From contig JACOXI010000003.1 in NCBI GenBank assembly GCA_016176335.1, forward strand, positions 194,477 through 258,476: a DNA stretch of 64,000 bases. The letters run 5' to 3'. Below the pieces are notes generated by a model. The model saw only the letters and a list, made by a program, of their open reading frames with translations, made no database searches and was not told the origin of the DNA. Positions within the stretch are counted from its first letter, which is position 1. Each line of letters opens with the position of its first letter. The position numbers were made by a program, and so were the translations under genes. This DNA comes from Candidatus Daviesbacteria bacterium. GTDB lineage: Bacteria; Patescibacteriota; Microgenomatia; Daviesbacterales; UBA10151. This document shows, in pieces, positions 9,085-54,777 of the stretch.

Positions 9085-9732
9085 TTATTTTGAAATCTTC
9101 AGTGATGAAGCAACTTTTAATAAAGTATCTCCTACTAATTCTCCCGCATTAGGCGCAGATCCCGCACTTAAGCTAAAAATATCGGAGTTAAGTTCAGGTT
9201 GGACAAAAAGTACCCCGTAAGAATATGCAACTGTACGAGGGTCTGGCGAAGGGGATGGGAATATGAGTAACTCATTTTGGCCATTTATTGTGGATACGTT
9301 TCTGCGAACAGTTCCTTGTACAATCTCTGGAATGAAAGGCTTAAGATAATAATCTGCTGCTTGTTTTACAGTTGAACCAAATACTCTGTCAAGCTTTGTT
9401 ATCCATATTGAATTATTCTGGTTGCTTTGATCTTTAATAGTGACCACATACTGCGTTCCGCCTTGTGGATTAAGACCCTCTTCAGCTTCCCAGTCCGCTG
9501 GAATTTTTACGCAGAAATTTAGGTTGTTACTACAAAAAGTTTTCTCGTTTTGTACAGGAAATGAGGTAGGTTGTGGGGTTTGCTCGCCTCGATGAGTCGA
9601 AGCGGGGGAAGTTACCACTGGATTAGCTGCGGGTTTTGGAGAAGTGGATCTACCCAGAAAATATGCTCCACCAGCAATTAGTATTATTAAAGCCCCAACT
9701 ATTATCCAAATCAGTATTTGCCCTTTTTGCAT
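9085..9732 (-). CDS. hypothetical membrane-anchored secreted protein
   Basis: N-terminal TM/signal anchor, Pro/Ser/Thr-rich linker, then a beta-rich domain; no recognisable family. Confidence 0.5.
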   Translation of the reverse strand: MQKGQILIWIIVGALIILIAGGAYFLGRSTSPKPAANPVVTSPASTHRGEQTPQPTSFPVQNEKTFCSNNLNFCVKIPADWEAEEGLNPQGGTQYVVTIKDQSNQNNSIWITKLDRVFGSTVKQAADYYLKPFIPEIVQGTVRRNVSTINGQNELLIFPSPSPDPRTVAYSYGVLFVQPELNSDIFSLSAGSAPNAGELVGDTLLKVASSLKISK

Positions 9733-9970
9733 ACCTTTATTCTAACAGTTTAGGATATAAAAGAATTAGCAAAAAACTTATGACCAGAGCTGAGAAAAAT
9801 GGGATTTTAATAAAAACACCCTTTTTATCAAGGTTAATATCCCAAGGCAAACGGGGAAACTTGGGAATAATATTCTCTACCAAACTCATTAAAAGAAAAA
9901 CCGTAAAGAAAACAATAAATTCCTTTCATACTGTTTTATTATAAATTGACTGTTACTTAATTAAAATACT

Positions 9971-11344
9971 ATGATTAAGTTAATGTCCTTTTACCTAAAG
10001 GCTCTGTTTGCTTTCACAGCAATCATGCTTTTTCTTCACCCAGCCCCTGTTTTTGCCCAAGCAGGGGGAGGGGGACCAGCCGGGATACCCCTGATTGAGT
10101 ATATATTTGCCAGAATAGTTTGTGTGGCTGTCCCTCTGGGGTATACAGCATTGCTGGTAGTTTTAGTATTTGCTGGAATTAAGTATTTAATCTCCGCGGG
10201 TGAGGCTAAAGCTGTTCAAGCTGCCCATCAAACAGTCACCTGGGGACTATTGGGAATATTATTCCTGACTATAGCCTGGTTAATCCTGCTGCTGATTCAA
10301 AACTTTACAGGAGTAAAAGTGACACAGTTTACCCTATCCTCATTACCTGGTGTACAGGGTTTTACTGGATCATGCTGGGCACCGGCACCAGTTGCCCCTG
10401 AACCACCGCCATCTCTTATGCAAACCACCCCTGCTAGCAACCTGATATCCCTTCCTCAAGATAAGCCGCTAGCTGCCGTTATTTTTGTTCGTGAATGTAG
10501 ACACTTACAAAATTTTATTAGAGCCAGTCATGTTATGCAGCCTCTTCTTCCAGCAGACCCTCTTAGGTTATTATATAACTCCCCTGCCGGAAACCCCTAT
10601 CCTAATTATGTAAACCCTAATCCGGATGATCCAGAATTGGCAGATCTTTTTGATGAAAATAAGGATGTACCAAAAGAGTGGCTTCATAATATTGCAATAG
10701 ATGCTTTATTAGTAATACCACCATGGTTTAGTGTCGGATATGAAATTGATGTTCCAAAAACAGTCACAAAGCTTCCCCTTAAAATAGCTTATATGCGTGA
10801 TTTCTCTCCTGTTGCTCCTCAATACGACAGATTTATTGGATATACCAGCCTAACGAGAGGGTATTTCCCACCAGATTATCCGGATGAATTGTTCTGGCAC
10901 TTCTATAACCTCGGCGGGACTAGTCACTTAATAAAAGTACCTGATGACCCTGATAGGCTACCTGAGCGGTTCAAAGAAAATCCTCCTCAAAGGATGCACC
11001 ATTATTTTTACAGGAGTAGTTACGGGTTTTGGATGGTTCCTAAGAATCGCCAAAGCGAAGTAAAAGACTCACCTTTTGTGGACGTCTCTCCTTGGGGATA
11101 TCTTACATCTGATAAAACTGTTGCACTATACAAAAGAGATGTAATCCCAGAACAGAGGATTCCTTTGGAATATGCAAATCATTTACCCTTTGGGCTGACC
11201 TTTGATCCAGAAGAAGCACTCAGGCTAATGGATGATACAACGAAGTCTAAGAGCGGGGGGTGGGGAACTTATTCATTTCCATCTATTATTTCTTGTCCGG
11301 AGGGTGAGATTTGGCAATTTCCAGTAAATATTCATGGATCCTAA
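9971..11344 (+). CDS. secreted protein with TrbC/VirB2-pilin-like N-terminal hydrophobic hairpin and a 330-aa Pro-rich C-terminal domain
   Basis: Sec signal ending VFAQA. Gly run, then two hydrophobic helices (IVCVAVPLGYTALLVVLVFAGIKYL ... GLLGILFLTIAWLILLLI) separated by a short polar loop, the arrangement seen in VirB2/TrbC pilins. The rest is unknown. Confidence 0.45.
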   Translation: MIKLMSFYLKALFAFTAIMLFLHPAPVFAQAGGGGPAGIPLIEYIFARIVCVAVPLGYTALLVVLVFAGIKYLISAGEAKAVQAAHQTVTWGLLGILFLTIAWLILLLIQNFTGVKVTQFTLSSLPGVQGFTGSCWAPAPVAPEPPPSLMQTTPASNLISLPQDKPLAAVIFVRECRHLQNFIRASHVMQPLLPADPLRLLYNSPAGNPYPNYVNPNPDDPELADLFDENKDVPKEWLHNIAIDALLVIPPWFSVGYEIDVPKTVTKLPLKIAYMRDFSPVAPQYDRFIGYTSLTRGYFPPDYPDELFWHFYNLGGTSHLIKVPDDPDRLPERFKENPPQRMHHYFYRSSYGFWMVPKNRQSEVKDSPFVDVSPWGYLTSDKTVALYKRDVIPEQRIPLEYANHLPFGLTFDPEEALRLMDDTTKSKSGGWGTYSFPSIISCPEGEIWQFPVNIHGS

Positions 11345-12065
11345 TAAGTTAGCTGAAAATATCAATAACAAGGGTGGGTTCAGAGCTGTATGGCAGTGGT
11401 TAAATCAATCACCAACCAGGTTAACAGGAATAATACTACTTGGTTTGTCTTTTGTATTGTTTTTGGCTTTGATGGTGATAATTTCTCAAAAAAACATTTC
11501 TAAAAAAACAGTATCTAATACACCTTATCCAAGCCCAGCTGCTCAACTGAAACAAAATATCCTTTCTCCCCTGCCATCACCAAAACCTGATGTAACTTTA
11601 AACTGGACAGTTCTTACAAACATTTATGGATTTCAGATTAAATATCCTTCAGGCTCCAAACTAACACCTGTCTTACCTCAGGCTTACTCCTCAGCCACAC
11701 TGCAAATAACCTCTGCTGCTTCAACTTTAGCTTTGGATATTGTTGATAAAAACAATCCAATCATAAAAGGCAAATCTTTAAAAGAAATTGTTGATTTAAT
11801 AAGGGAGAAAAATGCTACATCTTCTGCAAATATAACAGTCAAAAAGGTGCTCACTAAGCCTATTTTAATTCTTTATGGGGGGAATGAAGGATATGAGTGG
11901 TATTTGGAATCAAGTGGGCTGATAGGGTTGGATGCAACATATACCTCTAAGTTGGGTAAGAACCGCATTATTGAGTTTGATAAAAACAACAAACATTATC
12001 TGATCTTTACCAGTTTTGATGATTTGGGGGAACAGTTGTTATCAACTTTGAATATAATTCAATAA
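11334..12065 (+). CDS. hypothetical membrane-anchored protein (overlaps upstream gene by 11 nt)
   Basis: N-terminal TM helix, SPLPSPKP linker, extracytoplasmic domain; overlap with the upstream gene suggests translational coupling. Confidence 0.5.
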   Translation: MDPNKLAENINNKGGFRAVWQWLNQSPTRLTGIILLGLSFVLFLALMVIISQKNISKKTVSNTPYPSPAAQLKQNILSPLPSPKPDVTLNWTVLTNIYGFQIKYPSGSKLTPVLPQAYSSATLQITSAASTLALDIVDKNNPIIKGKSLKEIVDLIREKNATSSANITVKKVLTKPILILYGGNEGYEWYLESSGLIGLDATYTSKLGKNRIIEFDKNNKHYLIFTSFDDLGEQLLSTLNIIQ

Positions 12066-12089: not shown

Positions 12090-12107
12090 GGGTCGAAAAT
12101 TCGACCC
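12090..12107. other. perfect 18-nt palindromic hairpin GGGTCGAAAATTCGACCC
   Basis: Between the 3' end of the 11334-12065 gene and the hrcA promoter; no T-tract. Confidence 0.3.
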
Positions 12108-12136
12108 TTGACAAAGATTAGCAGTCATGGTAGATT
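12108..12136 (+). promoter_or_regulatory. sigma70-like promoter of the hrcA operon (TTGACA-17-TAGATT)
   Basis: Consensus -35, 17-nt spacer, 4/6 -10; overlapped by the CIRCE operator. Confidence 0.45.
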
Positions 12137-12144
12137 AGTGCTAA
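12118..12144. promoter_or_regulatory. CIRCE operator (HrcA binding site) TTAGCAGTC-N9-TAGTGCTAA
   Basis: One mismatch per arm relative to consensus TTAGCACTC-N9-GAGTGCTAA; 5 nt upstream of hrcA ATG. Confidence 0.8.
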
Positions 12145-33001: not shown

Positions 33002-34906
33002 TTGCGTTATAATACCCTCATGGATTCGAAAACTTTAAGAGAGAAATTTCTAAAATTCTTTGAGAATAATGGTCATACCATTATTCCCTCTGCTCCATTG
33101 GTACCATCGGATGAAGAACAATTAGTTGGTAAAGAGAGAGTTTTATTCACTGGTGCAGGCATGCAGCCCCTGATTCCTTACCTTATGGGTAAACTACATC
33201 CAAAAGGAAATAAATTGGCCGATGTGCAAAAGTGTGTAAGAACTGATGATATTGAACAAGTTGGAGATGCAACTCACCATACTTTTTTTGAAATGTTAGG
33301 GAACTGGTCATTAGGAGACTACTGGAAAGATGAAGCAATAAAATTATCGTTTGAATTTTTAACTAAAGAATTGGAAATTCCAATAGAAAAATTAGCAATA
33401 TCTGTTTTTGCTGGAGATGATGATGCGCCTCGTGATGAAGAATCTGTAAAGAAATGGAGAGAACTAGGAATCCCAGAAAAAAGAATTGCTTATTTAGGAA
33501 AAGAAGCAAATTGGTGGCCTACTGGTGAAAAATCAGGTCCATGTGGTCCTGATACGGAAATGTTTATTTGGACAGGAGAAGGTTCCGCGCCAGAAGAATT
33601 TGATCCCAAAAATCCAAAATGGGTAGAGGTTTGGAATGATGTGTTTATGGAATTTAATAGAAAAGAAGATGGAACTTTAGAGGATTTACCACAAAAAAAT
33701 GTAGATACTGGAATGGGGTTGGAGAGAATGTTGGCAGTAATAAATGGTAAAGATAATGATTATCAAACAGATCTTTTTTTAAGTGTAATCAATAATCTTG
33801 AATTATTTTCGGGATACAAATATGGAGAAAATACTGAAGTTGATCAGGCATTTAGAATAATTGCAGACCACATGAAGGCGGCAACCTTCTTAATAAAAGA
33901 TGAAGTTTTACCAAATAATAAATTACAGGGGTATGTATTACGTAGACTGATTAGAAGGGCGGCGGTAAAAAGCAAAAGATACTTCAAATATGACTTAAAT
34001 TTATTAGCGAATCTCTCGAGTAAAATTGTTGCTTTTTACCATGATACTACTGATTATTTTGAATACCAAGATTTAATTAAAATACATAGTATTATATTTC
34101 AAGAGGTCAAAAAGTTTGAGGAATCATTAAGTGCTGGTTTAAGAGAAATAGATAGGCGACTTAATAAATATGATACTCAAGGGGGATGGTTAGATTCTCC
34201 TGAAAATGCAGCAAAATTCGCCTTTGATTTGTATCAGACATATGGATTACCTATGGATGCGTATTTTGATGATGTACTTAAAAAATTTGGTATCGCATAT
34301 GCATGGGGGCAAAAAGAAGACTTATATAAGGAATTTGAAAAATTAAGAAATGAGCATGCAGATCTTTCTAGAAATACTTCTGCCGGAATGTTTAAAGGAG
34401 GACTTGCTGATCATTCGGAAGTTGTTACCAAATATCACACTGCTACTCATCTTTTGCATCAGGCTTTAAGAGACGTATTAGGTCCTGAAGTTTTTCAAAA
34501 GGGATCTAATATAACTAGTGAAAGATTAAGGTTTGATTTTTCTTATGATAAAAAAATGACAGATGATGAGATTAAAAAAACAGAAGATATTATTAACAAA
34601 AGAATTGATGAGGATTTAAAGGTTGACCACATGATTATCCCGCTTGACGAAGCAAAAAAGATGAATGCCATCGGGCTTTTTGATGAAAAGTATGCAGACA
34701 AAGTAAGTATTTATGGTGTCGGCCTTGGCTACGGAATAGATTCACAGGCCAAAGACCAAAGAGATAGAGGTGGGTATTATTCTTTGGAATTTTGTGGTGG
34801 TCCCCATGTGGAGCAAACAGGAACAATTGGAAAAATTAAAATTACCAAAGAAGAAGCAATATCTGCAGGCATTCGCCGAATCAGAGCCCAGATTGTTTCT
34901 TCTTAG
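33002..34906 (+). CDS. alaS: alanine--tRNA ligase, short form lacking C-terminal C-Ala domain (634 aa)
   Basis: Class II AlaRS catalytic motifs (FTGAGMQP, WSLGDYWK, GPCGPDTE) and editing-domain His/Cys motifs (HTATHLLH, CGGPHV). True start may be MDSKTL at 33020. Confidence 0.9.
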   Translation: MRYNTLMDSKTLREKFLKFFENNGHTIIPSAPLVPSDEEQLVGKERVLFTGAGMQPLIPYLMGKLHPKGNKLADVQKCVRTDDIEQVGDATHHTFFEMLGNWSLGDYWKDEAIKLSFEFLTKELEIPIEKLAISVFAGDDDAPRDEESVKKWRELGIPEKRIAYLGKEANWWPTGEKSGPCGPDTEMFIWTGEGSAPEEFDPKNPKWVEVWNDVFMEFNRKEDGTLEDLPQKNVDTGMGLERMLAVINGKDNDYQTDLFLSVINNLELFSGYKYGENTEVDQAFRIIADHMKAATFLIKDEVLPNNKLQGYVLRRLIRRAAVKSKRYFKYDLNLLANLSSKIVAFYHDTTDYFEYQDLIKIHSIIFQEVKKFEESLSAGLREIDRRLNKYDTQGGWLDSPENAAKFAFDLYQTYGLPMDAYFDDVLKKFGIAYAWGQKEDLYKEFEKLRNEHADLSRNTSAGMFKGGLADHSEVVTKYHTATHLLHQALRDVLGPEVFQKGSNITSERLRFDFSYDKKMTDDEIKKTEDIINKRIDEDLKVDHMIIPLDEAKKMNAIGLFDEKYADKVSIYGVGLGYGIDSQAKDQRDRGGYYSLEFCGGPHVEQTGTIGKIKITKEEAISAGIRRIRAQIVSS

Positions 34907-34952
34907 GTCATTCCCCGAAGTGCCAATATGTGCTAAGATAACTTTATTCCAT

Positions 34953-37130
34953 ATGAGTTTTTTTGATAGAATTTCTGCTTCAATACCCTTTGGAAAACAA
35001 AAAGAACAACTTGAGTACTATTTTGCCTTGAACATTTCCTTTGAAAGATTAACAGCTGCCCTTTGGACAATTGAAGGAAAAGAATTAAAAATTTTGGATA
35101 CTGCGGATAAATCATACTCCGGAACAGAGCAGATCACACTTGTTGCCGACTCTCTTTTGGATTCGGTTATAGGAACAAAACAGATTGAACCACAAAAAAT
35201 CCTTTTTGGAGTACCCCATTCCTGGCTTGCTGACGATAATTTAAAAGATGAATATTTAAAACTGTTAAGAGGATTAGTCAAGGAATTGGAGCTTACCCCT
35301 ATGGCTTATGTTGCTACAACTTCCGCCATAAACCATCTTTTGGAAACACAAGACGGGATCCCCCAAACAGCGATTTTGATTGGATTTGAAAGAAAGCATC
35401 TGACTGTTACGGTTGTAAGAGCTGGCAAGATTGATGGGGTGAAAATTTTGGAAAGAGGTGATAATTGCGGTGCGGATATAGAAAAAGCACTGCTGACTTT
35501 TACGGACATTGAAACCCTTCCATCAAAAATTTTACTTTTTGGTTTAGATCGGGAAGATCTGGAAAAATTAAAAGGTCAGCTTTTGTCTTTTGCTTGGATG
35601 GCAAAACTGTCTTTTTTACACTTTCCTAAAATAGAAATTCTGCAGGATTCTTTGGAGATAAAAAGTGTTTGTCTGGCCGGAGCAACAGAGCTACAAACTC
35701 ATGTTATCTTCAAAGATAAACTGCTTCAAAAAATTCAAGAAGCAACAATAGAACCTAAAGAGAGATTAGAGAAAGAGACGCCGGAAGGTGACAATTTCGG
35801 ATTTGTTTTGGGGGATGTATCTAAACAAGTTCAAATTAAGGAAGTGGAACGCAAAGAATCACCAGAGGAGGGATTAGATGGGGAAGGTTCAGGGAGCAGT
35901 ATGGAAATTGATGATTTTGAGCCACAAGAAGTTTTATCAGCACAACCTTCTATTTTGGATAAATTTAAACTGACAGTATTGAAAAAATTCATTCCCAAAA
36001 GGAATTATATAGTACACACAATTCTGTTAGGTTTAATTGGGGTGACTGTTGTTTTAGTTGGTGCATATATTCTGCTGGTTAAGGTACAAGTTAAAGTTTT
36101 TGTTGAGCCAAGAATTTTAGAGAAAAATGCTCAAGTTGTTGCTGATCCAAAACAAAAGGAGGTTTTGGAAGATGCAAGGATAATCCCGGGTCAGATCATT
36201 GCAACAGAAGTTTCCGGAACTGCTAAGGATAGTGCCACCGGCAAAAGACAAATTGGGGACCCTGCCAGGGGAACGGTGATCATTAGAAATAAAACTGATG
36301 CAAGTGTAACTTTATCAAAAGGAACAGTTTTTGCTGCTAACAATCAAAGATTTAATTTGGATGTTTCAGTCACTATTGCTTCACGTTCTGCTGATGATGG
36401 AACTTGGGGCCGAGCCAATAGAGAAGTGACTGCCCAAGCAATTGGGGCAGATGGTAATTTGCCATCTGGTACTGATTTAACAATTTCAGGTCACCTAACA
36501 GATCAATTAATTGCTAAATCAGAAGGTAATTTCTCCGGCGGGACTTCTAAAGAAGTGACTGTTGTGTCAAGTGAGGATCAAAAAAGACTTCTGGCGTCTT
36601 TAGCATCAACCTTGCGGAAACAGGCTCAACAAAAGCTACAAGGAGAATTACCAGAGAAAAAGATTTTAGAGGAAGCTTTATCAGAACAAATTTTAAGGAA
36701 AGATTATAACAAAAATGTTAATGATCAAGCCAATGAGTTTTCACTTAATATGGCAACAAGGTTTAAGGGTACGGCCTTTGAAGAAAAGGATTTGAAAAGA
36801 ATTGTTGGGAAACTTGTCACAACCGAGGTTCCGCCAGGCTATGAGTTGAATTTGCAGGATACGGAAACGCAAGCAGATGTTGCCAAACTTGAAACTGATG
36901 GAAGATTGATATTTTTGGCAAAATTTAGAGCAAAAGTTTTGCCTAAACTTGATAAAGACTGGATTAAAAATCAAATAAAAGGGAAAACTATAAATGAAGC
37001 GGCAGCAAGACTTAAAAGCATGGAAAATGTGTTAGGATCCGAGTTTCAAATGAAACCTGCCTTACCAAGTTTCTTGCAGCGTTTGCCGATTCTTTCTCAC
37101 AATATGGAGGTTGAGGTAGGTTTGAAATGA
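34953..37130 (+). CDS. hypothetical bitopic membrane protein: PilM/FtsA-like (degenerate actin-fold) N-domain, central TM, large extracytoplasmic C-domain
   Basis: Start trimmed to MSFFDRIS. N-terminal ~330 aa resemble PilM/FtsA but lack the DxG phosphate motif; TM at IVHTILLGLIGVTVVLVGAYILLV; C-terminal ~330 aa unknown. Could be a PilM-PilN/O-type fusion. Confidence 0.45.
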   Translation: MSFFDRISASIPFGKQKEQLEYYFALNISFERLTAALWTIEGKELKILDTADKSYSGTEQITLVADSLLDSVIGTKQIEPQKILFGVPHSWLADDNLKDEYLKLLRGLVKELELTPMAYVATTSAINHLLETQDGIPQTAILIGFERKHLTVTVVRAGKIDGVKILERGDNCGADIEKALLTFTDIETLPSKILLFGLDREDLEKLKGQLLSFAWMAKLSFLHFPKIEILQDSLEIKSVCLAGATELQTHVIFKDKLLQKIQEATIEPKERLEKETPEGDNFGFVLGDVSKQVQIKEVERKESPEEGLDGEGSGSSMEIDDFEPQEVLSAQPSILDKFKLTVLKKFIPKRNYIVHTILLGLIGVTVVLVGAYILLVKVQVKVFVEPRILEKNAQVVADPKQKEVLEDARIIPGQIIATEVSGTAKDSATGKRQIGDPARGTVIIRNKTDASVTLSKGTVFAANNQRFNLDVSVTIASRSADDGTWGRANREVTAQAIGADGNLPSGTDLTISGHLTDQLIAKSEGNFSGGTSKEVTVVSSEDQKRLLASLASTLRKQAQQKLQGELPEKKILEEALSEQILRKDYNKNVNDQANEFSLNMATRFKGTAFEEKDLKRIVGKLVTTEVPPGYELNLQDTETQADVAKLETDGRLIFLAKFRAKVLPKLDKDWIKNQIKGKTINEAAARLKSMENVLGSEFQMKPALPSFLQRLPILSHNMEVEVGLK

Positions 37131-37768
37131 TTACCATACCGAAGATAATATCGTTAAGTTTTCTTTTTCTTGGAGTGTTTATTTTAATACAAGTTGTCAT
37201 GCCGATTGTGTCTTTTGAAGTTTGGGAATTAGGTCAAAAATTTGATAAGGAAACTACTCTGATCAGCCCGCAAAAAGGACAATCGGTATTAGGTGTGTCA
37301 ATTGAAAGCAAGGATAATTTTCCTGCCTTTGTATCCAGTGTAAAAAGAGAAATAGCCCCTTCCTACACACAGTTTAGGATAAATGTTCCAAAATTACAGC
37401 TTTCTGAAATTACGGTTGATGTAGATAGTAATGATTTGACTCGCGGGTTGGTACATCTTCCAGGTTCTGCTTTGCCCGGAGAGAGGGGGAATGTTTTTAT
37501 TTCCGGTCACTCTGCCGTAAGTCCCCTGATTTCTTTGAAGACTGCTTTTTTTGGTAAACTTCAGGATTTAAAAAAGGCAGATAAAATTATTGTTGAGGCG
37601 GAAGGGACAAAATTTACCTATCAAGTTATTGATGTTAGGGCGGTCAACCCGAACGATACCTCGGTCATCAAGCCTCCTGATAAAATGGGAAGGTATATAA
37701 CTTTGATGACTTGTGTTCCTCCAGGGTTAAATTTCAAAAGACTAGTGGTTTTAGGTAAAATTATTTGA
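37127..37768 (+). CDS. sortase family transpeptidase
   Basis: N-terminal TM anchor; GNVFISGHS (His) and ITLMTCVPPG (TLxTC Cys) sortase motifs. Confidence 0.75.
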   Translation: MITIPKIISLSFLFLGVFILIQVVMPIVSFEVWELGQKFDKETTLISPQKGQSVLGVSIESKDNFPAFVSSVKREIAPSYTQFRINVPKLQLSEITVDVDSNDLTRGLVHLPGSALPGERGNVFISGHSAVSPLISLKTAFFGKLQDLKKADKIIVEAEGTKFTYQVIDVRAVNPNDTSVIKPPDKMGRYITLMTCVPPGLNFKRLVVLGKII

Positions 37769-51718: not shown

Positions 51719-52042
51719 ATGACCACAGTTTCTGTAACTCAAGCCCGTGCCAATTTATACGATCTTATTGATAAGGTTTCTACGTCTGGTAAACCAGTTG
51801 GAATTACCAATAAAGGTCAAACAAAAGCTATTTTAATTTCTCCGGAAGAGTTAAGATCTTGGGAGGTAACCATGGAAGTTATGAATGATAAAGAGTTGAT
51901 GGAGCAAATCAGAGAAAGTAAGAAAGATATTAAAGCTGGGAGGATTTACTCACTTGATGAAGTAGAAAAGGAGTTAAGATCAGTAAGGGATGTATCAGGT
52001 AAACCTATCAAATCAGGCAAGAAAAAGTCTAAAAAAGCTTGA
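51719..52042 (+). CDS. yefM: type II antitoxin, Phd/YefM family
   Basis: MTTVSVTQARANLYDLIDKV...KPVGITNKGQTKAILISPEELRSWEVTME closely resembles YefM/Phd; followed by a toxin ORF. Confidence 0.8.
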   Translation: MTTVSVTQARANLYDLIDKVSTSGKPVGITNKGQTKAILISPEELRSWEVTMEVMNDKELMEQIRESKKDIKAGRIYSLDEVEKELRSVRDVSGKPIKSGKKKSKKA

Positions 52043-52241
52043 TTATAAATTCCAAGATAAAGTATTGAAATCCCTGAGACTACTTGAGGTTGATCCATTT
52101 CTGGGTGAAAAAATGGGTGGACAATTCAAAGGATCTTTCCGAATTAAGATTCCGCCTTTGAGAATAATTTATACTCCGGATTTTAGTCGGAAGATAATTT
52201 TAGTTGAGGCTATCGGCCACAAAGGAGATATCTACAAATAA
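51990..52241 (+). CDS. type II toxin, RelE/ParE superfamily (YoeB/Txe-like)
   Basis: MYQVNLSNQARKSLKKLDYKFQDKVLKSL...FRIKIPPLRIIYTPDFSRKIILVEAIGHKGDIY matches RelE/ParE fold signature; overlaps the antitoxin 3' end by 53 nt in another frame. Confidence 0.75.
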   Translation: MYQVNLSNQARKSLKKLDYKFQDKVLKSLRLLEVDPFLGEKMGGQFKGSFRIKIPPLRIIYTPDFSRKIILVEAIGHKGDIYK

Positions 52242-52325
52242 ATATTTTCTGTTGCCAGGATCCAGATGGCAACATCTTCGGCCTCTTGAAATCCAGTGAT
52301 TTTTATTAGAAAATAGATTTATCCT

Positions 52326-53483
52326 TTAATTTGAAGGCATTTTTTTACTTTTTTCTATAATAGCCGCAACACGAACTATAAAATCTTGGACATCAAGGAA
52401 GAAATTAGGATATGCTCTTTTTAAAGAATTTATATCACCTGCAGATACAAGAACAGGTTCTATTTTCTCACCATTAGCTACCCTAGCTTCAGCCTCAGTA
52501 TAGTCCTCGGAGGCTTTCTTAATGTTGTCCTTTGCGTAAGATGTTATTCTAACCTTTTTTTCTAAAGAATTTAAGATAATTAAATGGTAATAAGAACCCT
52601 TTCCTTTTTTATCTGCAATGATTTTCAAAGCAAATTTATAGCTCTCCATAGCATTTAATGCTCTAATATCTTCAGCAATATGAGCAACAGCATCAAAAGT
52701 TTCTTTTTTGTCCATTTTATTATATTTTGAGATTCTAGGCGTACCTTCAATATAAGCAAATGCTGAAGATGTAATAGCAAAAAAGTCGCGCCACTTTTTT
52801 TCTCCCTCTCCAGATTTAAGTGCCTGTCCGAGATAAGTTCCCATTGTTTCAACAGCGGTAGCCCATGCGTGTTGTAGCTTTGTCCTAATTTGTAGTTCTA
52901 ATAAGAGTCCATTATATTCTGGTTTAATTTTATTTTTATACCTATAGACTAAATGTACGCTACGATATCCATCCTCTTTTGGATTCTGAATATAATCATC
53001 CGTTCGAACCAATCTATGCTGAAACTTTTTATCCATAAGATATATCGATTCGAGTTGGGTAACATCTTTGATAGATTTAACAACTGCTCTTAAACCACCT
53101 ATGTCCTGCATTCTAGCAAGTTTCATACCTCTGAATCTTCTCAATTTATCAATTATTGTGGACATACGTTTTAAACGCTGAGCTACAATTGCATTTGATT
53201 TCAATCTCCTCAATCTGGTTCTTAATGTAGCTTGAAAAGTATTCATTGGGTAACCATGACAAGCGCGCCAATTACTTAGAACATCGAGAGCATGATTAAA
53301 TTGTTCTTGGTCATTAGATTTACGACTGATTAAGATATCGCCTGCTCTATCTACTGCGGAATTTGAATAATCGGGTTGTGGAAATACCATAGCGGTTATT
53401 ATACAAATATCCCAGAAATAATCAAAAGACACCTTGGCTACGAAAGATTTTAAAACGTTTTTACCTCTTGCATAATCAGGCAA
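52326..53483 (-). CDS. RelA/SpoT-domain nucleotidyltransferase (small alarmone synthetase fold; toxSAS/CapRel-like architecture with 150-aa C-terminal extension)
   Basis: Synthetase motifs DIGGLRAVV, DGYRSVHLVY, ELQIRTKLQHAWA present. No synthetase-partner hydrolase domain. About 150 aa of unknown C-terminal domain. Start may be the internal MVFPQP at 53388-53390. Confidence 0.8.
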   Translation of the reverse strand: MPDYARGKNVLKSFVAKVSFDYFWDICIITAMVFPQPDYSNSAVDRAGDILISRKSNDQEQFNHALDVLSNWRACHGYPMNTFQATLRTRLRRLKSNAIVAQRLKRMSTIIDKLRRFRGMKLARMQDIGGLRAVVKSIKDVTQLESIYLMDKKFQHRLVRTDDYIQNPKEDGYRSVHLVYRYKNKIKPEYNGLLLELQIRTKLQHAWATAVETMGTYLGQALKSGEGEKKWRDFFAITSSAFAYIEGTPRISKYNKMDKKETFDAVAHIAEDIRALNAMESYKFALKIIADKKGKGSYYHLIILNSLEKKVRITSYAKDNIKKASEDYTEAEARVANGEKIEPVLVSAGDINSLKRAYPNFFLDVQDFIVRVAAIIEKSKKMPSN

Positions 53484-53592
53484 ATTATTGTATATTTATA
53501 TCTGTTACCAGCTTAAGGGGCTGGTATTTAATTGTCATTTGTCATATTGAGTCTGGACAAGATGAGATGGATAATGATAAAATAACAAAATT

Positions 53593-54777
53593 ATGGCTGA
53601 ACAGAAAAAGTTTGACAGAAGTAAACCCCACGTAAATATTGGTACCATGGGTCATGTTGACCATGGTAAAACCACTCTTACTGCAGCTATTACCAAAGTT
53701 TTAGCTGGCAAAGGTCTGGCTGAAGCTCGCTCTGTTGACCAAATTGACAATGCTCCTGAAGAAAAAGCCCGCGGTATCACCATCAATATCTCCCACCAGG
53801 AATACGAAACCGAAAAAAGACATTATGCTCATATAGACATGCCTGGTCACGCAGACTATATTAAGAACATGATTACCGGCGCCGCACAAACAGATGGCGC
53901 CATTTTAGTTGTTTCCGCGCCTGACGGCCCAATGCCGCAAACCAGAGAACATTTGCTTTTGGCAAGACAAGTAGGAGTTCCAGCAATTGTAGTATTTTTG
54001 AACAAAGTTGATATGGTTGATGATGCGGAACTGCTGGATTTGGTGGAAGAAGAAGTCCGGGATCTTTTGAAAAAATATGAATATGATCCGCAGTCACCTA
54101 TTATTCGCGGTTCTGCTAAAAAAGCTTTGGAAGGTGATGCGGAGGCTGTGAAGGCTGTTGAAGAACTTATGGCCAAGGTGGATGAATGGATTCCAACACC
54201 GGTCAGAGATGTGGAGAAACCATTTTTGATGGCTGTTGAGGATGTTTTCTCCATCAAAGGCAGAGGAACTGTGGTAACCGGAAGAATTGAAAGAGGCAAG
54301 GTTAAAGTTAATGAGGAAATTGAAATTGTGGGGATTAGACCTACCAAAAAGAGTGTGGTGACGGGAATTGAGATGTTTCACAAAATGTTGGATGAAGGAC
54401 AAGCCGGAGATAATGCCGGCATACTGCTTCGAGGTATTGAGAAAGATGATGTGGAAAGAGGTCAGGTTTTGGCCAAACCCTCCTCAATCACTCCTCATGC
54501 CGAATTTGAAGCAGAAGTTTATATTTTATCTAAGGAAGAGGGCGGAAGGCACACGCCTTTCTTCAAAGGTTACAGACCACAATTTTATATCAGGACCACA
54601 GATGTAACAGGTGAGGTACAACTGCCGGAAGGTGTGGAGATGGCCATGCCGGGAGACACGGTTAAAGTTACCGGTAAATTAATTACACCGGTTGCTATGG
54701 AAGATGGTTTAAGGTTTGCTGTCCGCGAAGGTGGTAAAACTGTTGGAGCTGGGGTAATTACGAAAATTATTGCTTAA
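53593..54777 (+). CDS. tuf: translation elongation factor Tu
   Basis: 394 aa; [22 protein letters not shown]; full EF-Tu conservation. Confidence 0.98.

What the first reader, a model, noticed from the sequence alone, without database searches (positions are those of the whole stretch)
9971..12065. Two-gene putative surface-structure operon: secreted protein with VirB2/TrbC-pilin-like N-terminal hairpin fused to a large Pro-rich domain, translationally coupled to a membrane-anchored partner
After a Sec signal (…VFAQA) the first protein has a Gly run followed by two hydrophobic helices separated by a short polar loop. That is the hallmark topology of T4SS VirB2/TrbC pilins. It then continues for 330 aa with PAPVAPEPPPS and PNPDDPE linkers and no known domain. 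Canonical VirB2 pilins are about 100 aa, so the fusion is unusual. The downstream gene overlaps it by 11 nt and encodes a TM-anchored extracytoplasmic protein. A third secreted hypothetical (9085-9732) is divergently transcribed. Together they may form a novel cell-surface appendage or adhesin unit.
Basis: partly seen in the sequence, partly recalled or inferred. Interest (0 to 1): 0.55.

Follow-up and report, generated by a model that had tools for sequence, protein, structure and literature searches.

The report
T4SS pilin fused to swappable ectodomain
In a Candidatus Daviesbacteria (Patescibacteria) genome, a conjugation-type (VirB2-like) pilin carries a large outward-facing domain with no known relatives and is paired with a conserved membrane partner, which may be how these ultrasmall bacteria display host-binding modules, though that function is untested.

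Summary
ORF 9971-11344 (true start most likely ATG 9983, 453 aa) encodes four parts: a Sec signal peptide, a two-helix hairpin, a Pro-rich spacer and a ~310-aa C-terminal domain. The 243-aa bitopic protein B (11334-12065) overlaps it by 11 nt.

The hairpin is a genuine T4SS_pilin (PF18895, VirB2-like). The window protein itself scores below threshold. However, 20 of 22 close homologues match the family, and it is 63% identical to a canonical 104-aa pilin (HYS96_00810) of the same genome. That pilin closes a six-gene pilin array. In related Daviesbacteria such arrays lie 8-10 kb upstream of a VirB4-like ATPase.

The C-domain is an orphan. An exhaustive search of 1.84 billion proteins finds only one relative. 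In syntenic loci of relatives, unrelated domains occupy the same slot, bounded by the PAPVAPEP spacer and the conserved A/B overlap.

B directly follows the fusion gene in 6 of 9 contexts (42.5-61% identity to the window's B), whatever the C-domain class.

Best reading: a specialised pilin that displays an exchangeable ectodomain on the T4SS pilus or cell surface, with B as an accessory factor. The function is inferred, not shown. It is a new variant of a known kind.

The parts
9946..9975 (+). Promoter of the A-B unit: -35 TTGACT (invariant in 4 loci) and -10 TACTAT/TATGAT. It ends only ~8 nt before ATG 9983, so the mRNA probably has a very short leader or none.
   Evidence: Consensus scan. 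Alignment of window, L093, L001 and L005 upstream regions.
9983..11344 (+). Gene A (453 aa from ATG 9983; mechanical ORF from 9971, 457 aa; residue numbers in this report follow the 457-aa ORF). It is a VirB2-like T4SS pilin fused to an orphan C-terminal ectodomain. NCBI name: hypothetical protein HYS96_01270, Candidatus Daviesbacteria.
9983..10063 (+). Sec-type signal peptide (MSFYLKALFAFTAIMLFLHPAPVFAQA, A-x-A cleavage motif). It is absent from some homologues that start at MGPGPAG.
   Evidence: Sequence. Hydropathy. Homologue N-termini.
10064..10378 (+). Pilin module (aa 32-136). It comprises a Gly run, helix 1 (39-74), the loop K-Y-L-x-S-x-G-E-x-K, helix 2 (79-113) and the conserved tail NFTGVKVTQFTLSSLPGVQGFTGSC. 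Cys51 and Cys135 are invariant in the fusion subfamily.
   Evidence: 20/22 homologous modules hit PF18895 (best 9.5e-8) and 15/22 hit TrbC PF04956. It is 63% identical to the canonical 104-aa pilin P0031 of the same genome. 35 positions are >=90% conserved with the same residue in both 22 fusions and 113 short pilins. AF2 pLDDT is 76-87.
10379..10450 (+). Pro-rich spacer (WAPAPVAPEPPPS...). This is the left boundary of the variable cassette. DNA similarity to L093, L001 and L005 stops at 10398-10411.
   Evidence: blastn. hhalign finds only this spacer shared between C-region classes.
10451..11333 (+). Orphan C-terminal ectodomain (12.5% Pro, 13% aromatic residues). It is bracketed by Cys176 and Cys442, both conserved in its only relative, P0002. 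The fold is unknown.
   Evidence: Exhaustive phmmer against 1.84e9 representatives finds only itself and P0002. The k-mer search finds only itself. No Pfam, NCBIfam or PHROG hit. AF2 pLDDT <50. Pairwise alignment with P0002.
11334..12065 (+). Gene B (243 aa), a bitopic membrane protein. It has a cytoplasmic tail with the conserved WQWL(T/N)xSxTR motif, a TM helix (~31-51), a Pro-rich linker and a ~150-aa ectodomain that may be PsbP-like. Its start overlaps the end of A by 11 nt (ATGGATCCTAA).
   Evidence: Homologues lie directly downstream of the fusion gene in L001, L093/L092, L094, L095 and L096 (42.5-61% id to the window's B), and weakly in L005. The junction is conserved. PsbP_2 gives weak hits in 2 of 7 members.
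9085..9732 (-). Gene C (215 aa), a neighbour whose membership of the unit is not shown. It has a TM anchor, a Pro-rich linker and a small ectodomain with 2 Cys. It is divergently transcribed, downstream of the DUF2905 ORF.
   Evidence: Syntenic C-like genes occur in L093 and, frameshifted, in L001.
9737..9889 (-). Small ORF of the DUF2905 family (50 aa here, 63-64 aa in relatives).
   Evidence: PF11146 at E 4e-7, above the gathering score. ORF lists.
12090..12144 (+). Right-hand boundary of the unit. It holds the hairpin GGGTCGAAAATTCGACCC, then the hrcA promoter (TTGACA 12108) overlapped by a CIRCE-like inverted repeat TTAGCAGTC-N9-TAGTGCTAA (12118-12144).
   Evidence: Sequence. Promoter scan. 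CIRCE consensus from established knowledge.

Best explanation
Gene A encodes a specialised paralogue of the VirB2-like pilins (Pfam T4SS_pilin, PF18895) that Patescibacteria encode next to their monoderm-type type IV secretion system.

Proposed pathway for A:
- After Sec export and signal-peptide cleavage (AQA|GGGG), the two helices insert as a hairpin. The K-Y-L-x-S-x-G-E-x-K loop faces the cytoplasm and both ends face outward, as in VirB2/TraA-type pilins.
- In canonical paralogues the protein stops ~10 residues after the tail motif. Here the reading frame continues through a Pro-rich spacer into a ~310-aa Cys-bracketed ectodomain.
- The most likely role is as a minor subunit, either incorporated into the T4SS pilus or kept at its membrane assembly site. 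There it would display this ectodomain on the outside, probably as a binding module for the host cell or substrate.
- Between related genomes the ectodomain is exchanged like a cassette, while the pilin module stays 57-85% identical.

B is a translationally coupled bitopic membrane protein. It tracks the pilin module, not the ectodomain class. It most likely helps insertion, stabilisation or hand-over of the fusion pilin.

What is shown: pilin homology, topology, the fusion architecture, orphan status of the ectodomain, cassette-like replacement, conserved A-B pairing, and a pilin array in the same genome.

What is inferred: incorporation into a pilus, an adhesive function, and the role of B.
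For: (1) Pilin identity
- A alone scores sub-threshold against three independent pilin models over the same region: PF18895 (E 0.16), TrbC (0.73) and Mbov_0395 pilin-like (0.52).
- 20/22 homologous N-modules hit PF18895 (best 9.5e-8) and 15/22 hit TrbC.
- A profile of the module retrieves 279 proteins. Of the 120 listed, 115 carry PF18895 and the median length is 108 aa.
- 35 positions, including the polar loop and tail, are >=90% conserved with the same residue in both fusions and short pilins. That argues for retained pilin-specific function rather than mere hydrophobic anchoring.
- AF2 gives a confident helical hairpin.

(2) T4SS link
- P0031 (HYS96_00810) is on the same 456,706-bp contig as A. 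It is 63% identical to A aa 42-130.
- P0031 is the last gene of a six-pilin array followed by an M23-like peptidase.
- In the related Daviesbacteria loci checked (L032 and L040 show all three genes in order), homologues of that array and its downstream gene lie 8-10 kb upstream of a VirB4-like ATPase.
- In chromosome CP066688.1 the cluster reads pilin-pilin-M23-...-PrgI/VirB3-248 aa-VirB4.
- In L001 the fusion-B pair itself is 8.5 kb from a VirB4-like gene, beside dnaA. L094 and L096 also place the pair beside dnaA. PMC12102498 reports this as the usual T4SS neighbourhood.

(3) Outward display
- The topology puts the C-terminus outside.
- Four Cys (51/135 and 176/442) are conserved with P0002, as expected for an extracytoplasmic protein.
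- Pilins of this family also tolerate N-terminal extracellular additions (383-aa pilin in L009; P0072, P0125, P0127).

(4) Cassette behaviour
- DNA similarity to the syntenic locus L093 covers 9606-10398 (76%) and 11389-12052 (66%) but not the C-domain.
- The A/B junction ATGGAT(C/T)CTAATAA is conserved.
- There are three C-region classes on one pilin module.

(5) B pairing
- B is directly downstream in 6 of 9 contexts (42.5-61% id to the window's B), independent of C-domain class.
Against: - No VirB4, VirB6 or VirD4 gene lies in the 64-kb window.
- The genome-wide scan did not retrieve the window's own contig. The T4SS of this genome is therefore inferred from its pilin array and from synteny in relatives, not seen directly.
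- Within +-10 kb of VirB4 in 80 representative genomes there is no fusion gene and no B homologue. The pair is therefore usually not part of the core cluster.
- A 310-aa appendage on every subunit is sterically incompatible with a VirB2-type helical filament. Only sparse, tip or base incorporation is plausible, and none of these is demonstrated.
- Nothing identifies the ectodomain as an adhesin. It has no fold match, and AF2 confidence is <50.
- The existence of a T4SS pilus in Patescibacteria is itself still hypothetical (PMC12857230).
Confidence: 0.5

Rival explanations
1. Co-opted anchor. The pilin hairpin has been recruited purely as a stable double-TM membrane anchor. The protein would then be a T4SS-independent, membrane-tethered surface protein, with B as its membrane partner.
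For: The gene lies among housekeeping genes, about 92 locus tags from the pilin array. No fusion or B gene occurs within 10 kb of VirB4 in 80 genomes. Genomic contexts vary, sitting next to hrcA, dnaA, recR or toxin-antitoxin genes.
Against: A mere anchor would need only hydrophobicity. Instead the polar loop K-Y-L-x-S-x-G-E-x-K, the A-G...E N-terminal motif and the 25-residue post-TM2 tail are conserved at >=90% in both fusions and bona fide short pilins. The N-module (57-85% id) is far more conserved than B (25-61% identity to the window's copy) or the ectodomain. In L001, L094 and L096 the pair sits in the dnaA/T4SS neighbourhood.
Confidence: 0.25
2. Processed precursor. The invariant SLPGVQGFTGSC motif, or the Pro-rich spacer, is a cleavage site. 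Cleavage would yield a mature short pilin and release the C-domain, either as a secreted effector or as a pro-domain. This would parallel the C-terminal trimming of RP4 TrbC before cyclisation.
For: The 13-residue motif at the exact position where short paralogues end is nearly invariant in 22 fusions. C-terminal processing of T4SS pilins has precedent (TrbC/TraF, VirB2 cyclisation; established knowledge). The spacer is an exposed Pro-rich segment.
Against: There is no recognisable protease or TraF-like gene next to A. Cys135 within the motif pairs in conservation with Cys51, which suggests a structural disulfide rather than a cleavage site. No experimental data exist.
Confidence: 0.15
3. Polymorphic toxin with immunity protein. 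A conserved N-terminal trafficking module would carry variable C-terminal toxin domains, and B would be the immunity protein.
For: The pattern of a conserved N-module, a spacer and unrelated C-domains resembles polymorphic toxin loci. Toxin-antitoxin genes flank some homologues.
Against: Immunity proteins co-vary with their toxin domain. Here B is 61% identical between the window (class I C-domain) and L093 (class II C-domain). B is membrane-anchored with a large ectodomain. No toxin family matches any C-domain. The class II C-terminal ~190 aa are well conserved rather than polymorphic.
Confidence: 0.05

Closest known systems
Patescibacterial VirB2-like pilins (Pfam PF18895 T4SS_pilin), encoded singly or in arrays of 2-11 genes near virB4. 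The array is essential in Southlakia epibionticum (PMC12102498, PMC10633639, PMC12857230).
   Same: The N-module is homologous, at 50-64% identity to canonical members. It shares the helical hairpin, loop motif and tail. The same genome carries a six-gene array of such pilins.
   Different: Canonical members are ~95-150 aa and stop right after the tail. This protein adds a Pro-rich spacer and a ~310-aa orphan ectodomain. It lies outside the array and has a dedicated, translationally coupled partner B. The papers read here do not mention such C-terminal fusions or cassette-like replacement.
VirB2/TrbC/TraA conjugative pilins of diderm T4SS (Pfam PF04956; T-pilus 8exh, F-pilus)
   Same: Shared features are a signal peptide followed by a Gly-rich N-terminus, two hydrophobic helices joined by a short basic loop, and both termini outside. 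15/22 homologous modules give TrbC hits.
   Different: Similarity is weak: best TrbC hit E 1.8e-4, with no PDB sequence match and non-significant Foldseek hits (8exh_A E 6.8; 8dfu E 3.6). There is no evidence of head-to-tail cyclisation, and the organism is a monoderm.
VirB5/TraC-type minor pilins and tip adhesins, and large minor pilins of other filament systems
   Same: The proposed role is the same: a low-abundance filament-associated subunit that carries the binding function.
   Different: There is no sequence or fold relationship. Here the binding domain would be covalently fused to a major-pilin-type core rather than being a separate protein.
Polymorphic toxin / contact-dependent effector loci
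   Same: A conserved N-terminal module carries non-homologous C-terminal domains that are exchanged at a fixed junction.
   Different: The downstream gene does not co-vary with the C-domain. No toxin domain is detected.

Membership tests
Pfam PF18895 T4SS_pilin (VirB2-like pilins of Patescibacteria and monoderms) | Match to the family HMM above the gathering score (26.6 bits) | tested here: inconclusive
   The window protein itself scores 12.5 bits full length and 15.5 bits for the N-module alone, both below the cut-off. However, 20/22 homologous N-modules (57-85% id) match, with best E 9.5e-8. Three full-length fusions carry precomputed PF18895 hits.
Pfam PF18895 T4SS_pilin | Demonstrable homology to bona fide members | tested here: met
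   The profile of the N-module retrieves 279 proteins. Of the 120 listed, 115 are annotated PF18895, at E 1e-34 to 1e-39 and 43-64% id. It is 63% identical to P0031 of the same genome. 35 shared positions are conserved at >=90%.
Pfam PF18895 T4SS_pilin | Two-helix hairpin with a short basic loop and both termini extracytoplasmic | tested here: met
   AF2 models helices 39-74 and 79-113 at pLDDT 76-87. Hydropathy agrees. K71 and K80 flank the loop. The orientation itself is inferred from the signal peptide and the positive-inside rule.
Pfam PF18895 T4SS_pilin | Genomic association with a T4SS (VirB4-like ATPase) | tested here: inconclusive
   There is none in the window. The same genome has a pilin array, and arrays syntenic with it lie 8-10 kb upstream of VirB4 in relatives. 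The orthologous fusion in L001 is 8.5 kb from VirB4. No fusion lies within 10 kb of VirB4 in 80 representative loci.
Pfam PF18895 T4SS_pilin | Small size (~100-150 aa) and polymerisation into a pilus | tested here: not met
   The size criterion is not met: 453 aa against a median of 108 aa. Polymerisation cannot be tested with these tools.
TrbC/VirB2 (Pfam PF04956) | HMM match above 27.9 bits; C-terminal processing and cyclisation | tested here: not met
   The score is 10.5-15.6 bits, and the best hit among homologues is E 1.8e-4. The PDB profile search finds no pilin. Cyclisation is not testable.
Polymorphic toxin-immunity pair | The downstream gene co-varies with the C-terminal domain; a recognisable toxin domain is present | tested here: not met
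   B is 61% identical across loci with unrelated C-domains. There are no toxin family hits.
Sortase-assembled Gram-positive pilins | C-terminal LPXTG sorting signal with a hydrophobic tail | tested here: not met
   A ends ...FPVNIHGS with no LPXTG and no C-terminal TM. The internal SLPGVQG is not at the C-terminus. The window's sortase (37127-37768) is 25 kb away.
Type IV pilins (T4P, class III signal) | Short basic leader, G|F/M-x-x-x-E, a single N-terminal helix and a globular beta domain | tested here: not met
   A conserved A-G|I-P-L-I-E (aa 37-43) has the G/x4/E spacing. But it follows a 27-aa Sec signal peptide (31 aa counted from the 9971 ORF start), and the protein has a second TM helix and the VirB2-type loop. 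No T4P family hit was found.
PsbP-like (Pfam PF18933 PsbP_2), for protein B | HMM match above threshold | tested here: inconclusive
   The window's B has no hit. 2 of 7 B-family members hit weakly (best E 0.0021).

The most novel reading that the evidence does not exclude
A subfamily of VirB2-type T4SS pilins in Microgenomatia has become a carrier for exchangeable ectodomains. A strongly conserved pilin core and a dedicated membrane partner (B) would present lineage-specific modules on the T4SS pilus. Cassette replacement at a fixed spacer/overlap junction would retarget these modules, which would then act as host-range determinants of the epibiotic lifestyle. This would be the first case of a conjugative-type major-pilin fold acting as an adhesin scaffold. 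It would also be indirect evidence that the Patescibacterial T4SS builds a surface filament.
Probability: 0.3. Interest if true: 0.75.

Novelty: new variant of a known kind. Interest (0 to 1): 0.5.

Why it matters
The T4SS and its pilin array are essential for epibiotic growth in the one genetically tractable Patescibacterium. Their function is described as completely unknown, and even the existence of a pilus is hypothetical (PMC10633639, PMC11665869, PMC12857230).

A pilin paralogue that carries a large outward-facing, rapidly replaced domain and has its own conserved partner offers a concrete handle on these questions:
- It suggests that the pilin fold is used to present binding modules.
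- It names candidate host-specificity determinants.
- It supplies epitope-sized domains that could be used to visualise the putative pilus.

The finding also shows that HMM cut-offs miss such fusion pilins, so surveys based on small size and profile coverage will under-count them.

Tried and rejected
- Direct family scans of A, B and C against Pfam, NCBIfam and PHROGs gave only sub-threshold pilin hits for A.
- PDB sequence-profile searches with the N-module, the B family and the class II fusions found nothing meaningful.
- AF2 of full-length A left the C-domain unmodelled (pLDDT <50), because only two sequences cover it.
- Foldseek against the PDB was not significant for either model. The T-pilus 8exh_A (E 6.8) and the Aeropyrum conjugative pilus 8dfu (E 3.6, TMt 0.58) appear only as weak hairpin matches.
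B's fold therefore remains unknown.
- Remote homology between the window's class I C-domain and the class II/III domains was tested by hhalign. Only the Pro-rich spacer aligns (E 3.7e-5), and the domain bodies do not (E ~0.2).
- I searched for the window genome's VirB4 by scanning genome contigs with the L001 VirB4 fragment. This returned 80 loci from relatives, but none was the 456,706-bp contig.
- I looked for silent cassettes, repeats or further pilin genes in the window and found none.
- A foreign-DNA origin is not supported. GC (0.415) and GC3 (0.317) of the C-domain are in the genome's range, and the locally negative GC skew fits the Pro-rich coding.
- The polymorphic toxin/immunity, sortase-pilin and type IV pilin readings were rejected on their defining features (see the membership tests).
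- A B-C paralogy is only weakly suggested (hhalign E 8e-4, probability 25%).
Full report
**1. What is at the coordinates**

The ORF list confirms three genes:
- 9971..11344 (+), 457 aa (gene A).
- 11334..12065 (+), 243 aa (gene B).
- 9085..9732 (-), 215 aa (gene C).

Residue numbers for A below follow the 457-aa ORF.

A and B overlap by 11 nt, cATGGATCCTAA. A begins with a Sec-type signal (…HPAPVFAQA), followed by GGGG. Two strongly hydrophobic stretches (hydropathy peaks 2.62) are joined by the polar loop KYLISAGEAKA.

After that come a conserved 25-residue tail, the spacer WAPAPVAPEPPPS, and ~310 further residues. These are rich in Pro (12.5%) and aromatic residues (13%).

The identical protein is in NCBI as hypothetical protein HYS96_01270 of a Candidatus Daviesbacteria MAG, on a 456,706-bp contig. 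The identical gene trio C-A-B also occurs in three independent Logan assemblies. So this is not an assembly artefact.

The rest of the window is housekeeping. It holds MurJ, LepA, hrcA-grpE-dnaK-dnaJ, NusA, IF2, PNPase, FtsK, rpoBC, EF-G, EF-Tu and ribosomal proteins. There is no VirB4, VirB6 or VirD4.

**2. Corrections to the anatomy**

I aligned the upstream regions of four loci. They share an invariant TTGACT (9946-9951), a -10 box at ~9969-9975, and a conserved TTAATGTCC.

The real start is therefore ATG 9983 (MSFYLK…, 453 aa), as in the NCBI model. The mRNA has almost no leader.

The 238-nt 'intergenic' region also holds a conserved minus-strand small ORF, 9737-9889. It matches DUF2905 above Pfam's cut-off. 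The divergent unit is therefore DUF2905 followed by C.

Downstream of B lie a hairpin and then the hrcA promoter, overlapped by a CIRCE-like repeat at 12118-12144. That closes the A-B unit.

**3. The N-terminal module is a T4SS pilin**

On its own, A gives only sub-threshold hits. But they fall on three independent pilin models over the same residues:
- PF18895 T4SS_pilin, E 0.16.
- TrbC/VirB2, E 0.73.
- Mbov_0395 pilin-like, E 0.52.

Twenty-two other proteins share the N-terminal ~135 residues at 57-85% identity. Of the 22 modules scanned, 20 match PF18895 (best 9.5e-8) and 15 match TrbC.

A profile of the module retrieves 279 proteins. Of the 120 listed, 115 already carry PF18895. Their lengths are 94-214 aa with a median of 108.

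Thirty-five positions are >=90% conserved with the same residue in both the 22 fusions and 113 short pilins. They include the polar loop K-Y-L-x-S-x-G-E-x-K, an N-terminal A-G…E motif, and the tail F-T-G-x-x-V-T-x-F.

AlphaFold2 models helices 39-74 and 79-113 with pLDDT 76-87. Comparison with solved pilins is not significant by sequence or by Foldseek. So the relation to diderm VirB2/TraA rests on the Pfam-level evidence only.

**4. Link to a T4SS**

One of the short relatives, P0031 (104 aa), is HYS96_00810. It sits on the same contig as A, about 92 locus tags away. It is 63% identical to A residues 42-130.

P0031 is the last gene of a six-gene pilin array of 383, 105, 134, 110, 124 and 104 aa. 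An M23-like peptidase follows the array.

I scanned species-representative genomes with a VirB4-like fragment from locus L001. This returned 80 loci, mostly Daviesbacteria, at 63-91% identity. The window's own contig was not among them.

In at least 18 of these loci, short pilins 26-63% identical to A's module (42-63% for the 14 closest) lie 5-10 kb upstream of VirB4. Homologues of the window organism's last two array pilins and of the gene after its M23 peptidase occur in the same order there, for example in L032 and L040.

In the complete chromosome CP066688.1 the cluster reads pilin, pilin, M23, …, PrgI/VirB3, a 248-aa protein, a VirB4-like ATPase, then an SLT-like protein. This matches the monoderm-type T4SS described for Patescibacteria, with VirB2-like pilin arrays that are especially abundant in Microgenomatia (PMC12102498).

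The presence of a T4SS in the window's genome is thus strongly suggested by synteny but was not seen directly.

**5. The C-terminal domain is an orphan in a cassette-like slot**

An exhaustive phmmer search of residues 146-457 against 1.84 billion representatives finds only the protein itself and P0002 (E 2e-29). The word-indexed search finds only itself.

A and P0002 are 74% identical in the pilin module but 36% in the C-region. All four Cys (51, 135, 176, 442) are conserved.

The other fusions carry different C-regions:
- Class II (18 proteins) has a variable middle part ending in C-P-D-x-D-Y-Y, plus a well conserved ~190-aa terminal domain.
- Class III (P0018, P0019) resembles only the class II middle part (hhalign 96%, E 3e-9).
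- Class I (the window and P0002) shares nothing with them beyond the Pro-rich spacer.

The locus L093 is syntenic with the window: C-like, DUF2905, fusion, B. DNA similarity covers 9606-10398 (76%) and 11389-12052 (66%). It vanishes across the C-domain.

The left break falls at 10398-10411, in the spacer, in all three comparisons. On the right, the junction ATGGAT(C/T)CTAATAA is conserved in the window, L093 and L001.

Base composition of the C-domain is ordinary for this genome. No silent copies or repeats occur in the window.

AF2 of the syntenic class II protein P0009 is of moderate quality (mean pLDDT 67.5). It has no significant PDB neighbour. The appended domains are therefore of unknown fold and function.

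**6. The partner B**

A B homologue lies directly downstream of the fusion gene in most contexts examined:
- L001, L093/L092, L094, L095 and L096, at 42.5-61% identity to the window's B (43-73% among themselves). Three of these have the same 11-nt overlap.
- L005, weakly (25%).
- It is absent from L002-L004 and L097.

B keeps a cytoplasmic WQWL(T/N)xSxTR motif, one TM helix, a Pro-rich linker and a ~150-aa ectodomain. Only 2 of 7 family members give weak PsbP_2 hits.

B is 61% identical between loci whose fusion proteins carry unrelated C-domains. It therefore tracks the pilin module, not the cargo. That argues against an immunity-protein role.

No B homologue lies within 10 kb of VirB4 in the 80 representative loci. 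In L001, however, the pair sits 8.5 kb from VirB4, beside dnaA. L094 and L096 also place it beside dnaA.

**7. Interpretation**

The topology places the C-terminus outside: signal peptide, N-out hairpin, basic loop inside. That is where the termini of VirB2/TraA-type pilins lie (established knowledge of F- and T-pilus structures).

The short paralogue ends with …SLCEVGGKQFCK. This aligns with SLPGVQGFTGSCW of the fusions. So the extension starts exactly at the former C-terminus.

Members of the family also tolerate extracellular additions at the N-terminus (L009 383-aa pilin; P0072, P0125, P0127, P0141).

The best-supported reading is a specialised, probably minor, pilin. It would present an exchangeable ectodomain on the T4SS pilus or at its assembly site, with B as an accessory membrane factor.

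The rivals, with my confidence in each, are:
- A co-opted membrane anchor independent of the T4SS (0.25).
- A precursor cleaved at the invariant motif (0.15).
- A polymorphic toxin system (0.05).

Pilus incorporation, adhesion and B's role are all inference.

**8. Comparison with what is known, and verdict**

VirB2-like pilins and pilin arrays in Patescibacteria are already described, and they are essential in Southlakia (PMC12102498, PMC10633639, PMC12857230). Those papers, as far as I read them, do not mention three things:
- Pilins fused to large C-terminal domains.
- Cassette-like replacement of those domains.
- A dedicated partner gene.

The finding is therefore a new variant of a known kind. 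The functional claim remains a hypothesis. Interest is moderate (0.5). It would be higher (about 0.75) if the ectodomains prove to be host-range determinants displayed on a T4SS filament.

Noticed in passing
window 9737-9889 (-), with 9834-9929 (-): An unannotated small membrane protein of the DUF2905 family lies between genes C and A. It is 50 aa here but 63-64 aa in L093 and L001. A 1-nt indel puts the first TM helix (MKGIY…) into a separate 31-aa ORF, so this is either a truncated gene or a sequencing error.
   Followed up: partly
window 12108-12144: A CIRCE-like inverted repeat TTAGCAGTC-N9-TAGTGCTAA overlaps a TTGACA-17-TAGATT promoter directly upstream of hrcA (12149), the first gene of an hrcA-grpE-dnaK-dnaJ cluster. 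This looks like classical HrcA autoregulation in a CPR genome.
   Followed up: no
window 9946-9983: The conserved promoter of gene A ends about 8 nt before the conserved start codon (9983). This implies a leaderless or nearly leaderless mRNA. No Shine-Dalgarno sequence precedes A or B.
   Followed up: partly
window 10079-10099 (aa 37-43 of A) and short PF18895 pilins: A conserved A-G|(I/L)-x-x-(I/L)-E motif has the G/x4/E spacing of class III (prepilin-peptidase) signals. Many short paralogues start right there (MGPxxAG…) without any Sec signal peptide. Whether a prepilin peptidase acts on T4SS_pilin proteins is open.
   Followed up: no
L009:2955-5961 (same organism, outside the window): A six-gene PF18895 pilin array. 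Its first member (383 aa) carries a ~290-aa Cys-rich domain on the N-terminal side of the hairpin, the mirror image of gene A's architecture. HicAB lies upstream and an M23-like peptidase downstream.
   Followed up: partly
L001, L094, L096: In three relatives the fusion-B pair lies next to dnaA. In L001 it is also near yidC/rnpA and 8.5 kb from a VirB4-like gene. In the window the pair lies next to the hrcA operon, so it has moved.
   Followed up: partly
L001:2027-2694 (-): The C-like gene of L001 is split into 55-aa and 167-aa ORFs. This is either a frameshift or a pseudogene.
   Followed up: no
window 10001-12000: GC skew is slightly negative (-0.04) here, although both genes are on the + strand. 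Almost every other 2-kb bin of the window is positive (0.09-0.33), apart from 52001-54000 (-0.053). GC and GC3 are normal, so the skew probably reflects Pro-rich (CCN) coding.
   Followed up: partly
window 34770-37130 (+) and 37127-37768 (+): A 786-aa ORF with no Pfam hit overlaps the start of a sortase gene by 4 nt. It has an internal TM segment and no C-terminal LPXTG, so it is not an obvious sortase substrate.
   Followed up: partly
record titles: Many Daviesbacteria-like contigs carrying this VirB4 are deposited as 'uncultured Gammaproteobacteria bacterium' (binchicken MAGs). One is labelled Clostridia and one Nevskiaceae. These taxonomic labels are evidently wrong or placeholders.
   Followed up: no
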